Shown piece by piece: positions 29,320 through 49,032 of a stretch of 64,000 bases of DNA. The notes under the pieces are model-generated. The model had not been told where the DNA came from. It ran no database searches and saw only the letters and a program-made list of their open reading frames with translations. The first letter of the stretch is position 1; each line of letters begins with the position of its first letter. The stretch spans positions 10,416,001 to 10,480,000 of the forward strand of contig NC_043014.1 in NCBI RefSeq assembly GCF_006345805.1, written 5' to 3'. The DNA is from Octopus sinensis. Its lineage: Eukaryota. Made by a program: the position numbers and the translations under genes.

Positions 29320-29871
29320 GAGTGAGAGAGCAGCGCATGCTATCAAAGTGACCCTGGGGTACAAATATACGAATCTTAGTATACCTATCATGACTACCCT
29401 TCTGATAAGGGAACAACAGGCACATGCATCACGATCACATGTGTGCGACATGGTGATCTGATATCAAGATAAACAGTGCATAACATTGCAGGTGGGCCCC
29501 TATTAGAATTTTCGTCCGGTCGCGAAGCCCATCCTGCACAAAAGATCCTTTAATAAGGGTTATTTGAGGATGTTGAACGAAACACCCATGTTTCCAGAGG
29601 TGAATTATTCAAATGCCAAAGGCTTCCTTTCAACACACGGCTATGATGATCCCCCTCCACTTCTGCCCGTGATCAGAGATGCATATATCGTCAGCCAGCA
29701 ACAGAAATGCGCAACTGGTGAAGGTCAAACGACTGGCAAGCAAATTTTTTGTATTAAGCAGAGTATTTGCTGGAGCCCATCTTTTATACGAGGACAAAAC
29801 ACGTACATGATAACACTTCCAATCAGTTATGATCAGAAGCCACGAGAACCAGCGCTTTGCATTGCTCCAGA
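29320..29871 (-). mobile_element. 560-bp ORF-less (AAT)n-associated retroposon, diverged copy with a different 5' head
   Basis: Colinear with 48196-48750 on the opposite strand and adjacent to a long (ATT)n tract. Confidence 0.85.
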
Positions 29872-30129: not shown

Positions 30130-30467
30130 TAGTTTTATTTTTATATCGTGCTTTCACTTCACTACCGAGCGCAGCTCTGTCTACCTTGGGTATGTGTTGT
30201 GATTTTTTGTGATGCTCTGATAGTTATTGTATGGAAAGTGTTCTGCGTAGGATGTGTGCAGTGCCTAGTAGTGCAATTCCCTGTATGTTATATGTTTGTA
30301 AGTCCTGGTGTTTTTGTTATGTATTTGTCTGAATATTTTTTATCATGCCTAATGCACCTACTATGATAGGGATTGTTTCTGTTTTTAGATTCCACATTCT
30401 GGTTACCTCTATTTCCAGGTCTTTGCATTTTGAAAGTTTCTCCATTTCTTTTAGAGACACGTTGTCA
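30127..30467 (-). mobile_element. Dong-like family C 3' fragment (RLE C-terminus and 3'UTR)
   Basis: DNVSLKEMEKLSKCKDLEIEVTRMWNLKTETIPIIVGALG...PGLTNIYNIQGIALLGTAHILRRTLSIQ*, then an (AAT)n tail. Confidence 0.85.
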
Positions 30468-36838: not shown

Positions 36839-36990
36839 AGACATTCACTAGTACAACACCAAAGAAAAAAAACAAATATATGGCACACTTGGCATAGCAA
36901 CAACGTGAACTTCCAACCTGTTGTCTCTTGCGGTCTCTGGGTGAGACTTGGAGCCAACTTGTACAGACATAAAGCAAAAGTCAAACATAG
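36839..36990 (+). mobile_element. Dong-like family B 3'UTR with (AAT)n tail
   Basis: Same sequence as 47761-47909 and the reverse complement of 61017-61150. Confidence 0.8.
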
Positions 36991-37041: not shown

Positions 37042-37224
37042 CAGGACTTACAAACACATATAACATACAGAAAATTGCACTACTAGGCACTGCACACATC
37101 CTACGCAGAACACTTTCCATACAATAACCATCAGAGCATCACAAAAATTCACAGCACATACCCAAGGCACACAGAGCTGCGCTCGGTAGTGAAGTGAAAG
37201 CACGCTATAAAAATAAAACTACTG
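37042..37224 (+). mobile_element. Dong-like family C 3' end between (AAT)n tracts
   Basis: GLTNTYNIQKIALLGTAHILRRTLSIQ* plus the 3'UTR shared with 30127-30467. Confidence 0.85.
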
Positions 37225-43680: not shown

Positions 43681-46600
43681 AAGCCGACTACGGCTGCTAT
43701 AATGGTACGATTATAATTGTAACGGCAATGATGGCCGTCTCCCCACGAGCCAATCAAAGCTAAAAAAATGATAACATTATCGTAGCACCAAAATGTTTTT
43801 GGAAACTAAAAGGAAAACTAAATCAGTATACCAAATCGCTTGTCCTATGGTTAATCGGAAGCGCGTCCCCCAGGGAAGAGCCAGCCTGGGATCGAAAAGT
43901 CATCAACTGGCACAAACTCTTCTCCGAATACGGACATGGATGGTCACTTGAACGGGAAATCCCCCAACTCGAGCCCTCCAAGTTCACCACCACAACCACC
44001 ACAGAAAGAAAAAATGTAAGCGGAACAAATGGACCGAGAAGAGTATAAAGAAGTAATATACGCTTATTACTATGCATTAGGTAGGCCATCTCAAGAGAGA
44101 CACACCGCAAACTCTTACAGTATATGGAGAACACGGAATCAAGACAGTAGGCCCTATTTGGACGAGAACAAATTAGCAAATGTGGAGGGGATATCTTTAG
44201 AAATAACAGACTCACAGACAGTGAAATAAGCGCGATCAAGCACGCAACGGAAAATGACATAAATATAAGACACAAAGGAAATGAAGAATCAGATGAACAG
44301 TATAGCCCGCCACGAGGCTTAATTGAAAGACTGCCATCTGACCAAAGTACGCAAAGGCCTGAAGATACAGAAATTCTATTGTACCTGTTAAAGATAGCCA
44401 GGAAAACGAAAAAACAACAGTAACTGAAGATCTCGCATTTGCTGAAGACACAGAGAGTCTATAGCAGAAATGAGGCAGAAAATCCTGAATACGCTTGAAG
44501 TTGTAAGACATACAAGTATGAATGATAGAGAACCGCTTCATAAACTCTCAAATACAAACCAAAATAAAAAACAAATCCAATTGGCAACTATGTAACAAAT
44601 GAATAATACGAGAATTAAAACCTGATTTTACTGAGTTAAATGAAATATTTACGCTTCTGCTAGGGCAATTGAAACCAGCTGTATGCCCCGAAAAAACAAA
44701 GAAAACAAAACCTGGGAAGAAATCAAACCTGGAGAAGTAAAATTGAAAAAGAGATTGAATTTATGAGAGGGGAAATATCAATATTAAATGAACTAATATG
44801 TGGAAATGATGTAAGATCCAGAACAGGAAGAAAGATGAAGAAAATTTGGATCCTCACCAAGAGAGGAACTGATATCAATAAAAGAAACGCTGAAACAAAA
44901 GTCCAAGCAAAAGCCCAAAGAATACGAAGATTTGAGAAGAGAAACAAGTTTTACAAGCAAAATAAGCTGTTCACATCCAATGCCAAAAAATTCTACAGAG
45001 AAATAGGGAAGGAGAAAGTAACCGTTAAAGACCCCCCTCCCATGGAAGAAGTTCAAAACTTTTGGAAAAGGATTTGGAGTGACAAGAAGACGTACAACAT
45101 AAATGCAGACTGGATTATACAAACTGAAGGATCCTACCAAATTTACAACAAGCATGGGAAGACATCACAATAGCAGACCTAAAAAGGCACTCACGAAGGC
45201 CCATAATTGGAATCCCCCGGTAAAGATAGGGTGCCGAATTTCTGGCCCGCATCGCTCCCGTGCGCACACAGTAAGCTAGTTCAGCTGCTCAATGGAATTA
45301 TGAGAGACCCAAAGAAAACACCTGAATGGTTAGCAAGTGGCATTACTTACCTACTCCCAAAGAATAACGAAACCAACCTTCCAAAAAACTATCGGCCTAC
45401 AACCTGTCTATCCACCACGTATAAAATCCTAACATCTATCCTGGCGGAGAAAACATATGCATTCATTGAGAAGAACGATATTTTCCCCATTGAACAAAAA
45501 GGGTGCCGCCGAGGCTCTTACGGATGCAAAGATCAACTGCTAATCAATCGTATGATCCTTGAGAACTGTCACAACAAGCGCAGAAATCTCAGCACCGCAT
45601 GGATTGACTATAAAAAGGCCTTCGACAGTATACCGCATCCATGGATCTTGAGATCGCTGGACATCTTCAAAATTTCCCCTGTGATTTCAAACTTCCTGAA
45701 GCACAATATGTCGTTGTGGAATACGAATCTCCAATTATACCACTCTAATGGAGTACTTGCCTCAGAAAATATAAACATCAACTGTGGCATTTTTCAAGGT
45801 GACTCACTTTCACCTTTAATATTCTGCATAGCCCTAATACCCCTTACAAGTGAATTAAACAGAACAGGGTATGGGTATAAAATTGCCAATAAAAAATAAG
45901 CCATCTATTTTATATGGATGACTTAAAACTTTATGGTAAAGACAATAATGAACTTGAAGGCCTATTGCGCACCGTGAAATCATTCAGCGATGACATCGGG
46001 ATGGAGTTTGGACTTGAGAAGTGTGCCAAGGCCACTTTCCAGAAAGGGAAAGTGAAGACCACAAATTCAGTCGTGTTAGATGTTGACACAGTCATAGAGA
46101 GCTTGAGCAAGAACAAACATACAAATATTTAGGGATAAATGAAGGCTCTGGTATTCAGCATGCAAGCATGAAAGAGAAAATCAGGAAGGAATGTTATAGG
46201 AGAGTTCGTGCAGTCCTGAAATCTGAACTAAATGCACGTAACAAGGTGTTAGCTATAAATTCCCTAGCAGTTCCAGTTGTTACTTATAGCTACAATGTGT
46301 TGAACTGGAATATGAGTGAAGTAAAGAATATAGATAGAAAAATACGCAAGCTGCTGAGTTGTAATAGATGCACCACCCAAAGGCAGACGTAGATCGCCTT
46401 TACCTTCCCAGAGCCCAAGGAGGTCGAGGCCTGATCCAATTTGAACTAGCTTACAAAACAACCACAATTGGACTGGCCAAATATCTCGAAATATCGAATG
46501 ACTGGATGCTAAAGCTCGTGGAAAATCACGAGAGACGAAAGAAGCTTCATTCTATCATCAAGGAAAGCAAAAAATTTGCTATTGATCTCGTGCAGGATAC

Positions 46601-47636
46601 CCAAACTGAACAACCCGAGGAAGTACGGCAACTATTGTTGCAAAGAAGGTGAAAATGATGGCAATGAAAAAGCGCACGAGCAATTGGCTGATAGGTGGGA
46701 GGAGAAACCTCTGCACGGCAAATATGTGACCCGCAGCAAACAAGCTGATGTTGACCAGAAGCAAACCCATCAGTGGCTGCGGAGCTCAGGGCTAAAAGCA
46801 GAGAGCGAAGGTTTCATCCTGGCTGCTCAAGACCAAGCCTATCAACCCGGAACTACCAGGCCAATGTGATGAAAATGGAGCAGACCCAAAATGCCGATTC
46901 TGCAACGACATGATTGAAACAGTGGACCACCTAATCTCTGGATGTAAAGTCTTAGCACCAGTGGAGTATAAATTAAGACATGACAGAGTTGGCCAATATC
47001 TCCACTGGCTAATAAGTCGGCATTACAATATCAAAACTGCCGACAAGTGGTATAATCACCACCCTGAGGCTGTAACTGAAGGAGAAAATGTAACCATTCT
47101 GTGGGACTTTCCAGTACATACAGACCGAACCATCAAGGCCAATAAACCAGATATTGTTGTGAAAGACCAAAACAATAAAGTTTGCTTATTGATCGACATA
47201 AGCATCCCCTGTGATCATAATATCTCAGCGAAAGAGTTTGACAAGCTCAGAAAATATAAAGACCTACTCATTGAAATTGAGAAAATGTGGCATCTCAAGG
47301 CGGTTACAATACCAGTGATCGTAGGAGCACTAGGAATGATCAAGAAGGGAACCGAAAATTATATGAGAATTATCCCTGGCTTACCATCCCTGCAAGAAGT
47401 GCAAAAGATTGTCTTAACTGGTACATCACACGTATTGAGAAGAGCATTGTCGATGTGAGAACTGTTGCTGCTCATGCATTTTAATTTAACTTTAAATAAA
47501 AAAAATTTAAAAAATGAACGAACTACTGAGTTTGGTTTAATGGCCTACCAATATACACTATGAGTTTCTTTGCCCTAGGAGTCGGGAAGACACTCGGCAA
47601 GAAATGGAAGAAAATTTGAAAGAAGAAAAAAAAAGT
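43681..47636 (+). mobile_element. Near-full-length R4/Dong-clade non-LTR retrotransposon (family A; RT, CCHC knuckle, RLE), frameshifted
   Basis: RT motifs NYRPTTCLSTTYK, EQKGC, WIDYKKAFDS.PH, GIFQGDSLSP and FYMDDLKLY. Then CRFC....ETVDHLISGC, RHD, KPDIVV and E..K..KY. Flanked by (AAT)/(GAT) tracts with a long (AAT)n 3' tail. The 5' boundary is approximate. Confidence 0.92.
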
Positions 47637-47642
47637 AATAAC

Positions 47643-47703
<61 letters not shown>

Positions 47704-47709
<6 letters not shown>

Positions 47710-47908
47710 TCTATGTAATCTCAAGTTTGAAAACAAACATAATTTTCATTTTTTTTTTTTAGACATTCACTAGTACAACACTAAATACAAAACCAAATAT
47801 ATGGCACACTAGGCATAACAACATCACGAACTTCCAACCTGTTGTCTCTTGAGGTCTCTGGGCGAGACTTGGAGCCAACTTGTACAAATATAGCAAAAGT
47901 CAAACATA

Positions 47909-47909
<1 letters not shown>
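47704..47909 (+). mobile_element. Dong-like family B 3' end
   Basis: Last codons (ILSM*) plus the 3'UTR shared with 61017-61285, in (AAT)n. Confidence 0.85.
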
Positions 47910-47953
<44 letters not shown>

Positions 47954-48162
47954 TAATAATAATGATGATGATGATGATGATGATGATGATGTGATATAAT
48001 AATAATAATAATAATAATATAATATAATAATAATAATAACAATACAATAACAATAACAATAACAATAATAATAACAATAATAATAATAAATATGATAATA
48101 ATAATAATAATAATAATATAATAATAATAATAAATAATAATAATAATAATAATAATAATATA

Positions 48163-48195
<33 letters not shown>

Positions 48196-48197
<2 letters not shown>

Positions 48198-48750
48198 GCC
48201 CTGATGCAGTACCAGGCAGTGGCTCTCATGGCTTCTGATCTTAACTGATTGGAAGTGTTATCATGTACATTGTTTTGTCTTGGTATAAAAGATGGGCTAC
48301 AGCAAATATTCTGCTCAATACCACAGATTTGCTTGTCAGTTGTTTGACTTTAACCAGTTGAGCATATCCCTTAGTGGCTGACGATATGTGCATCTCTGAT
48401 CACGAGCAGAAGTAGTGGGGGAGCATCATAGCCATGTGTTGAGAGGGATTCTTTGGGGTTTGAATAATTCACCTCTGGAAACATGGGTGGTTCTTTCAAT
48501 TTCATTAAACAACCCTTATTCAGGGACCTTTTGAGCGGGATGGGTTACTCAACCTGAGGAAAATTCTAACTGGCCCCACCTGCAAGGTCATGTGCTGTTT
48601 ATCTTGGTATGAGATTACCATGTCGCGCACATATGGTTGTGATGCATGTGCCTGGTATACCCTTATCAGACGGGTAGTCATGATGGGTATATTCGGCTTC
48701 GTATATTTTACCCCAGTGTCACTTTGATGGCATGCACTGCTCTCTCACTC
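48196..48750 (+). mobile_element. 560-bp ORF-less (AAT)n-associated retroposon, full copy
   Basis: ATGCCCTGATGCAGTACCAGG...GCACTGCTCTCTCACTC with (AAT)n on both sides. Copies at 29.3, 61.4 and 62.7 kb. Confidence 0.88.
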
Positions 48751-48790
<40 letters not shown>

Positions 48791-49032
48791 GTAATAATAA
48801 TAATAATTACCGTTATACAACGCCTGAAATCTAGTGGGAAGGAGATAGTCGAGTTTAAACTGATATTTATGACATCGACTCTAAAAGGATGATATGTCCA
48901 GTCAACCTCGGCGAAATTTGAACGTGAAGATGCATAAAAATACTTCAAACCATTATTTCCGGTGTGGTAACGATTTTTCAACGGCTCTGTATTAATAACA
49001 GAATCAACCATAATTATTATTATTATTATTAA

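What the first reader, a model, noticed from the sequence alone, without database searches (positions are those of the whole stretch)
48196..48750. ORF-less, structured ~560-bp retroposon found only next to (AAT)n microsatellites
Seen in the sequence: four near-full copies (29320, 48196, 61352, 62701) and one 5'-truncated 3' tip (18813). All end at CTCACTC. Four are followed by a long same-strand (AAT)n tract; the 29320 copy has only a short 3' remnant but a long tract at its 5' side. Three copies start at the same ATGCCC. There is no conserved ORF, no TIRs and no recognisable B box, unlike the tRNA SINEs here. It has several local stems: CTTCTGATC/GATTGGAAG, ACAGCAAAT/ATTTGCTTGT and GTACCC..TATCA-GAC/GTC-ATGAT-GGGTA. 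Established: Dong/R4 RLE elements target TAA repeats, and R2/R4 have non-autonomous SIDEs. Inference: this is a non-tRNA, site-specific SINE/SIDE mobilised by a Dong-type protein, with a fixed 5' end possibly set by RNA processing. Its 3' end matches none of the three Dong 3' ends in this window, so the partner is unidentified.
Basis: partly seen in the sequence, partly recalled or inferred. Interest (0 to 1): 0.72.

Follow-up and report, generated by a model that had tools for sequence, protein, structure and literature searches.

The report
Non-coding hitchhiker of AAT-seeking retrotransposons
This is a 556-base non-coding jumping element, with an estimated tens of thousands of copies in what is likely an octopus genome, that sits mostly inside AAT repeats and likely borrows the enzyme of neighbouring 'Dong' retrotransposons through a look-alike RNA hairpin, although how its RNA is made is still unknown.

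Summary
The element is real: a discrete 556-nt family, about 46,000 copies (17 in 1.0 Mb sampled). It is strongly but not exclusively tied to (AAT)n: 7,160 of 9,778 exact 3' ends are followed by AATAATAAT. Copies broken at the 5' end abut AAT (21 of 34), copies broken at the 3' end do not (1 of 15), which fits target-primed insertion on the + strand. No copy examined extends into an ORF as a LINE tail would. No autonomous element shares either end by sequence, but a model built only from the 3'-UTR hairpin common to the genome's Dong-type families places its best hit on the element's own 3' hairpin (8-16 bits, weak). The 5' end is one fixed base, often tandemly duplicated, and rarely carries the extra G seen on Dong-C (3 of 110 against 4-5 of 14). 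No known ribozyme, tRNA head or clear Pol III box was found; three T4 runs argue against Pol III. It fails the SIDE tests. Verdict: a new variant of LINE-dependent non-autonomous retroposon; partner family and RNA source open; Repbase/Dfam not checkable.

The parts
48196..48750 (+). Full-length copy of the 556-nt non-coding retroposon (2.0% from the consensus of 90 copies)
48198..48297 (+). Predicted 5' domain I (long hairpin closed by GCCC/GGGC, element 3-102); z -1.8 alone, so weak
   Evidence: predicted only
48309..48411 (+). Predicted domain II (element 114-216); part of the 103-272 piece that a separate MITE family carries
48412..48750 (+). Predicted branched 3' domain (element 217-556), folding z -5.5 against 100 shuffles (0 of 100 as low)
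   Evidence: predicted only
48653..48692 (+). 3' hairpin with NGGUA loop resembling the hairpin shared by Dong 3' UTRs; best hit of model R2 in the element (7.8 bits, E 0.17 in this copy; 13 bits, E 0.005 in L215)
48273..48276 (+). First of three T4 runs on the sense strand (consensus 78, 334, 512; kept in 89, 74 and 88 of 93 copies)
47910..48195 (+). Upstream AAT-rich tract, the tail of a Dong-C 3' piece; ends in TAA at the junction
48751..48807 (+). Downstream (AAT)n tract
47703..47909 (+). 3' piece of Dong-type family C, itself inserted in the AAT tail of the Dong-A copy; carries the shared hairpin at 47840-47887
43683..47635 (+). Frameshifted Dong-type family A element (RT and restriction-like endonuclease region), co-oriented; hairpin at 47565-47612; its true 5' end may lie further upstream
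61352..61951 (-). Second copy, with a tandem duplication of its first 51 nt (61901-61951)
62701..63265 (+). Third copy; (AAG)n upstream, (AAT)n downstream
29320..29851 (-). Old copy (85% identical), in the AAT tail of a Dong-B 3' piece; not a separate subfamily (best other matches 86%, all ordinary young copies)
18813..18851 (-). 5'-truncated 39-nt 3' tip with AAT on both sides

Best explanation
The element is a 556-nt non-coding repeat family that sits mostly inside (AAT)n tracts and is likely copied in trans by the reverse transcriptase/endonuclease of Dong (R4-type) LINEs, which it likely recruits with a 3' hairpin shaped like theirs rather than with a shared sequence. Steps: (1) shown: a discrete unit with one 3' end (CTCACTC before AAT), 5'-broken copies lying against AAT, co-orientation with Dong tails; (2) inferred: a Dong protein nicks an (AAT)n tract, very often the tail of an older Dong or of another copy, and primes reverse transcription at the element's 3' end; (3) inferred, weakly supported: recognition uses the hairpin at element 459-506; (4) inferred from junctions: the RNA starts at one base (A1), the enzyme often jumps back to an internal site after reaching it, and the RNA is probably uncapped; (5) untested, my guess at about 45%: the RNA is trimmed or cut out of longer Pol II transcripts that run through upstream Dong tails or host introns, the folded 5' domain setting the end.
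For: Targeting: 7,160 of 9,778 exact 3' 17-mers are followed by AATAATAAT; 9 of 18 5'-truncated copies in the 3'-anchored set have an AAT tract at the broken end against 0.5% background. Polarity: AAT at the broken end in 21 of 34 5'-truncated and 1 of 15 3'-truncated copies, p 4e-4; the + strand folds better than shuffles (z -3.7, 0 of 60) and the - strand does not (z +0.8). Company: 41 of 128 full-length copies have a Dong 3' UTR within 500 nt upstream on the same strand, 0 on the other. Enzyme supply: Dong-C has open frames of 1,100-1,300 aa, 7 of 10 fetched long-frame copies run to the normal stop; Pfam RVT_1 and closest solved structures are R2 proteins. Dong elements target TAA repeats (PMC3812793, passage read) and Dong-R4 is recently active in an octopus (PMC13282606, parts 1-2 of 3 read). 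Hairpin: 25 Dong 3'-UTR segments from about 13 families share a two-stem hairpin (74% cells paired, 12 of 14 pairs with double changes, slid controls 32-44%); the model built from them alone hits element 459-506 in 13 of the 24 loci (14 copies, 9.8-16.1 bits) and it is the top hit within the element; random DNA gives about 13 hits of 9.6 bits or more per 200 kb of both strands, about 0.01 expected in the last 130 nt. Fixed 5' end: 18 of 132 full copies carry a 5' duplication whose inner unit restarts at A1 or T2 with 0-3 extra bases in all but one; 17 exact [..233][1..] joints at about 13 loci sit on different subfamilies, so they recur independently. Dong-C shows the same kind of 5' duplication once (L258). 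One chimera joins Dong-B RT sequence to element 84 at a 5-nt microhomology (L012).
Against: No sampled Dong family shares either end by BLASTN, so no dedicated partner is identified. The hairpin score is low (7.8 bits, E 0.17 in the window copy), below held-out Dong hairpins (mostly 19-40 bits), and I noticed the motif by eye before building the model. Subfamily variants do not significantly favour the predicted structure once transitions are controlled (11 of 189 against 3 of 140, p 0.17); only one linked pair (252/318) was seen, and it may be shared ancestry. Several 5'-truncated copies lie in unique DNA. No target-site duplication or empty site could be read. The Dong label of the partner families rests on domains, target and literature, not on a tree with references. 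The extra-G contrast rests on 13-14 Dong-C junctions and on my reading of where its template starts. Nothing here shows the RNA.
Confidence: 0.7

Rival explanations
1. It is an old internally deleted derivative (SIDE or bipartite element) of a Dong lineage that is extinct or that I did not sample; its ends are that lineage's 5' and 3' UTRs, and it carries that lineage's internal promoter.
For: The 3' hairpin resembles Dong families D, H and I; at least 15 families exist and a new one still turned up in the last sample; 5' ends are known for only three families (A, B, C). R2 SIDEs arise this way (PMC3414825, abstract and Discussion read).
Against: No BLASTN match to 161 Dong 3' regions or to the three 5' ends; a profile of Dong C-terminal peptides scores the element no better than shuffles, frameshift allowed (best -2.5 bits against -3.9 to 3.6 in 40 shuffles); the Dong-C 5' end is heterogeneous and G-rich, unlike the element's.
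Confidence: 0.17
2. It is an atypical Pol III SINE, read from a degenerate internal or an upstream promoter, and moved by Dong.
For: A single uncapped-looking start at an A fits Pol III; an older allele has a B-box-like GTTCAACAT near 299; my box scan is insensitive. EhSINE1, also without a small-RNA head, has only partial boxes (PMC2996970, passages read).
Against: Three T4 runs are kept in 74-89 of 93 copies, the first at 78, while the consensus of the genome's tRNA SINE (258 hits) has none in 240 nt; no A box near the start, no tRNA, 5S, 7SL or snRNA match. That T4 stops Pol III in molluscs is assumed from other animals (recalled).
Confidence: 0.15
3. It is moved by another AAT/ATT-seeking element in this genome: a Tx1-type LINE (then the - strand would be the RNA) or a Penelope-like element with a hammerhead.
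For: A hammerhead-bearing family starts beside AAT/AAC tracts in these loci; earlier notes report an ATT-seeking Tx1 opposite to Dong (e1-9939279, not checked by me). PLEs favour microsatellites (PMC8557442, passages read).
Against: Truncation polarity, 5' duplications, folding asymmetry and co-orientation with Dong all point to the + strand; no hammerhead core with a usable stem III, no Rfam hit; the hammerhead family mostly has the tract on one side only; the PLE targets named in that paper are (TA)n, (CA)n and (C)n.
Confidence: 0.05
4. It is a solo LTR (it can be read TG...CA and has TATAAAAG at 89) or simply the 3' UTR of a LINE.
For: TG/CA termini and a TATA-like word are in the sequence; one copy follows RT sequence (L012).
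Against: In 40 loci anchored on the 5' end and 37 anchored on the 3' end no common internal region, primer site or upstream ORF appears; neighbours are AAT tracts; graded 5' truncation is not LTR-like; the L012 join is mid-RT at a microhomology and the 19 other RT loci fetched continue as normal Dong.
Confidence: 0.03

Closest known systems
Dong elements of the R4 clade (Bombyx Dong, DongAg, DongBg; 'Dong-R4' of octopus annotations; PMC3812793 passage, PMC13282606 parts 1-2)
   Same: TAA/AAT target, same strand and same 3' phase (element then AAT), similar 3' hairpin, 5' truncations
   Different: No ORF, no sequence shared at either end, single-base 5' end without extra G
R2 SIDEs and R2/R1 hybrid SIDEs of Drosophila (PMC3414825, abstract and Discussion)
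   Same: Short, non-autonomous, site-specific, served by a site-specific LINE, possibly released from a longer transcript
   Different: SIDEs have an HDV-like ribozyme head and a 3' end homologous to the partner; neither was found here; they are rare, this is about 0.7% of sampled DNA
EhSINE1 of Entamoeba histolytica (PMC2996970, passages)
   Same: A SINE-like element without an identified small-RNA precursor and with only partial Pol III boxes, dependent on a LINE (that EhLINE is R4-clade and EhSINE1 about 550 nt is recalled, not read)
   Different: EhSINE1 shares about 70 bp of 3' sequence with EhLINE1 and is not repeat-targeted
tRNA-derived octopus SINEs OK/OR1/OR2 (Ohshima and Okada 1994; seen only as cited in PMC4758252)
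   Same: Abundant short retroposons of the same genomes
   Different: No tRNA head, T4 runs inside, microsatellite targeting

Membership tests
SINE in the strict sense (tRNA/7SL/5S/snRNA head, Pol III) | Head homologous to a small RNA | tested here: not met
   No Rfam hit at gathering score in the window, none inside five copies at E up to 10 apart from two chance-level bacterial rows; ARAGORN none
SINE in the strict sense (tRNA/7SL/5S/snRNA head, Pol III) | Internal A and B boxes, no internal T4 | tested here: inconclusive
   No A box near the start, no exact B box, three kept T4 runs; but the scan also missed the control SINE's B box
SINE in the strict sense (tRNA/7SL/5S/snRNA head, Pol III) | Pol III transcription | not testable with these tools
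   No raw RNA reads were listed
LINE-dependent non-autonomous retroposon (broad sense) | No coding capacity, dispersed, high copy | tested here: met
LINE-dependent non-autonomous retroposon (broad sense) | Fixed 3' end with variable 5' truncation (TPRT polarity) | tested here: met
   21 of 34 against 1 of 15
LINE-dependent non-autonomous retroposon (broad sense) | 3' end shared with a partner LINE | tested here: inconclusive
   No sequence match; weak structure match
LINE-dependent non-autonomous retroposon (broad sense) | Target-site duplication or defined empty site | tested here: inconclusive
   Repeat flanks hide it; laying four runs on L216 listed no joint across the whole element (only 15 of about 800 joints were shown)
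SIDE (R2-type) | HDV-like ribozyme at the 5' end | tested here: not met
   0 hits of my descriptor (no positive control run) and no Rfam hit
SIDE (R2-type) | Ends homologous to an autonomous element | tested here: not met
   None among sampled 3' regions and three 5' ends; census incomplete
Solo LTR / TRIM | Paired copies around a shared internal region, PBS and PPT | tested here: not met
PLE-derived retrozyme | Hammerhead ribozyme | tested here: not met
MITE / DNA transposon | Terminal inverted repeats | tested here: not met
   The two ends do not pair in the predicted fold and are not complementary in the sequence
An existing Repbase or Dfam entry | Sequence match to a curated family | not testable with these tools
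   No repeat library is held; the octopus library on Zenodo cited in PMC13282606 could not be seen

The most novel reading that the evidence does not exclude
A kind of SINE-like element that has neither a small-RNA head nor LINE-derived ends: its RNA is released, uncapped and at one exact base, from longer transcripts by its own folded 5' domain (an undescribed self-cleaving or exonuclease-blocking RNA), and it parasitises a whole clade of Dong LINEs by copying the shape of their shared 3' hairpin, landing in their AAT tails and so renewing its own supply of read-through transcription.
Probability: 0.2. Interest if true: 0.8.

Novelty: new variant of a known kind. Interest (0 to 1): 0.5.

Why it matters
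If right, it gives a natural, 46,000-copy test of what a Dong/R4 protein recognises: the hairpin shared by about 13 families, with covariation, is a concrete candidate for the recognition signal of a clade whose RNA requirements I found no paper on, and RLE retrotransposons are of current interest as site-specific gene-insertion tools (own knowledge). It would also be a microsatellite-targeted non-autonomous retroposon that reached about 0.7% of sampled DNA without a recognisable Pol III head, which makes the source of its RNA and of its exact 5' end a directly testable question. If the RNA turns out to be an ordinary capped or Pol III transcript, the finding is a well-defined but modest addition to octopus repeat annotation.

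Tried and rejected
Decayed Dong ORF end inside the element: looked plausible by eye near 350-410, scored no better than shuffles. Separate old subfamily: searching with the 29320 copy returned ordinary young copies. First hairpin model R1 had a misplaced structure line and was not used; R2 replaced it. Covariation within the family: not significant. Local 100-nt windows: no z below -2.0, so the first 120 nt are not unusually stable. Hammerhead reading of CUGAUGCAG...AAAAG at the 5' end: both core halves deviate and no stem III. Propagating 5'-extended subfamily: rejected, the joints are independent. Expression: no RNA holder listed. Empty-site test on L216 with four runs: uninformative, its flanks are repeats too. 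Searches for the partner through the L012 RT piece and an N-terminal peptide found Dong-B and Dong-C, neither sharing an end. Ten full-text searches listed no description of this element; the octopus genome paper PMC4795812 is not held, no supplements were opened, and Repbase/Dfam were out of reach, so prior description is not excluded. Earlier-findings look-ups by sequence and by words gave nothing.

Full report
Observation. The window lies in G000, 2.72 Gb; its repeats suggest an octopus (my inference from recalled SINE types). The family is large. Exact motif counts: 9,778 for a 3' 17-mer, 7,160 of them followed by AATAATAAT, and 8,600 for a 5' 18-mer, 3,822 of them behind TAATAA(A/T)T; reversed controls gave 0. 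In 100 evenly placed 10-kb stretches BLASTN gave 23 hits; after dropping 4 hits that belong to a MITE, 1 edge fragment and merging one split copy, 17 copies remain, about 46,000 genome-wide (95% range 27,000-74,000). Contigs of five public runs under five organism codes carry it at high copy, with allele frequencies that differ between runs.

Anatomy. The consensus of 90 full copies is 556 nt, copies lie 0.4-21% from it (a set biased to young copies). It has no open frame, no Rfam or tRNA match. The + strand folds better than shuffles (z -3.7) and the - strand does not (z +0.8); the signal sits in 217-556 (z -5.5), with z -1.8 and -2.1 for the two 5' domains and +0.2 to -2.0 for four Dong ORF controls. 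The copies do not confirm the fold: shared variants are not significantly more structure-compatible than expected for transitions (p 0.17).

It is a unit, not a LINE tail. In 40 loci anchored on the 5' motif most copies are full length and none runs into a shared downstream sequence. Of 37 loci anchored on the 3' motif, 19 are full length and 18 truncated, and none leads into an upstream ORF. One copy elsewhere (L012) is joined to mid-RT sequence of Dong-B at a 5-nt microhomology; 19 other copies of that RT stretch continue normally. This is a chimera, by template switch or by insertion.

Targeting and polarity. AAT at the 5' side of 5'-truncated copies shows that the tract was there first: 9 of 18 in the 3'-anchored set against 0.5% of random positions. 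Over all loci, counting one tandem array once and leaving out the MITE loci, copies under 85% identity and copies at locus edges, AAT lies at the broken end of 21 of 34 5'-truncated and 1 of 15 3'-truncated copies. A Dong 3' UTR lies within 500 nt upstream on the same strand for 41 of 128 full copies and on the other strand for none; another copy's 3' end for 18. Exceptions exist: GAT, AAG and unique flanks.

The likely partner. TBLASTN with C-terminal peptides found 18 clusters of AAT-tailed 3' UTRs (one is a deleted form of another, several are singletons) and one more later. Dong-C has long open frames whose product matches RVT_1 and solved R2 proteins. I call these Dong/R4 from domain content, TAA target (PMC3812793, passage) and octopus annotation (PMC13282606, parts 1-2; PMC8967140 and PMC9115989, passages); no tree was built. 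None shares an end with the element by BLASTN, and a decayed-ORF reading failed. Their UTRs do share a two-stem hairpin 55-125 nt before the tail: 74% of cells paired, 12 of 14 pairs with double changes, slid controls 32-44% (I set the structure by hand from these sequences, which favours it over slid versions). A covariance model from these 25 segments alone found 7 Dong hairpins in the window at 19-36 bits (two of them training rows or near copies) and one element copy at 11.8 bits; in 24 loci it hit element 459-506 in 14 copies at 9.8-16.1 bits; inside single copies it is the top hit, E 0.17 and 0.005. Random DNA gave 13 other hits of 9.6-11.2 bits in 100 kb, both strands. So the match is on the right strand and place and unlikely by chance (about 0.01 or less), but weak and found after looking.

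The 5' end. Among 110 copies with an intact start, the commonest junction is TAA then ATGCCC; 3 have a G just before A1 or T2. Full-length Dong-C starts are mixed and 4-5 of 13-14 carry an extra G (p 4e-4 to 3e-3), which I read as cap copying (inference from known LINE behaviour). 18 of 132 full copies (19 listed, one false) have a 5' duplication, and the inner unit restarts at A1 or T2 with at most three added bases in all but L003. One joint, position 233 to A1, occurs 17 times at about 13 loci on different subfamilies, so the cDNA repeatedly ended exactly at A1. This argues against an RNA that carries a long upstream AAT stretch, the way some R2 elements get uniform junctions (PMC3774820, abstract). 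What sets the end is open. No HDV-like fold (descriptor without positive control), no hammerhead and no Rfam ribozyme was found. Three T4 runs kept in 74-89 of 93 copies, absent from the tRNA SINE consensus, argue against Pol III, but the box scan is insensitive. I therefore favour trimming or cutting from longer transcripts (about 45%), over Pol III (30%) and a capped Pol II start (25%); these figures are judgement.

Comparison and verdict. It works like a SINE or SIDE served by a site-specific RLE LINE, but fails the defining tests of R2-type SIDEs (PMC3414825, abstract and Discussion) and shows no small-RNA head. EhSINE1 is the nearest headless case but shares about 70 bp with its LINE (PMC2996970, passages). 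Helenus/Ajax TRIMs (PMC10886601, passages) and retrozymes (bioRxiv 10.64898/2026.07.22.740005, passages; PMC8557442, passages) do not fit; PMC4758252 (passages) names only OR2 and Ceph-SINEs for cephalopods. Ten searches listed no description, but curated repeat libraries and supplements were not seen and may hold this family. I score it a new variant of a known kind, interest 0.5.

Noticed in passing
L281-L300 (e.g. L289:1310-1810); random hits L303, L314: A separate MITE-like family of about 500 bp with roughly 100-bp inverted ends, copies about 80% alike, carries element positions 103-272 (96.5% consensus to consensus, with CpG-type changes that suggest capture from an inserted copy); 307 exact matches of one 22-mer.
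   Followed up: partly
L242-L280; L056, L207: Dong-C has a 5' UTR of about 0.9 kb with a splice-donor-like GTAAGT and a branch/acceptor-like stretch; Dong-B also has GTAAGT near its start; Dong-A and -C share a (GAT/GGT)-rich UTR segment. An intron in a LINE 5' UTR that is kept in copies would be odd.
   Followed up: no
window 47565-47612, 47840-47887, 61041-61088, 36919-36965, 37153-37201, 30150-30198, 21390-21437: At least 15 AAT-tailed Dong-type families coexist and share a covarying two-stem 3'-UTR hairpin.
   Followed up: yes
L227 (reverse strand 2107-3524): Tandem array of at least 10 units, each element 454-556 plus an AAT tract: a satellite born from a truncated copy.
   Followed up: no
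Read laying on L003:1490-2070: A joint from element 138 back to the start is seen in all four runs, and in run X20 the first 150 nt are several times deeper than the 3' half: possibly a tandem repeat of the 5' part in that organism.
   Followed up: no
L173:1694-1850, L200, L084, L165, L020: A short family with a canonical-looking hammerhead (CUGAUGA...GAAA) starts at a fixed point beside AAT/AAC tracts; likely Penelope-like ends.
   Followed up: partly
L348, L349: In two [..233][1..556] joints the upstream piece shares private changes with the downstream copy, which suggests that ordinary diverged copies, not only a master, can serve as templates, or that the duplication arose after insertion.
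   Followed up: no
window 23314-25000 (-): Fragments of another LINE type with RT motifs, not examined.
   Followed up: no
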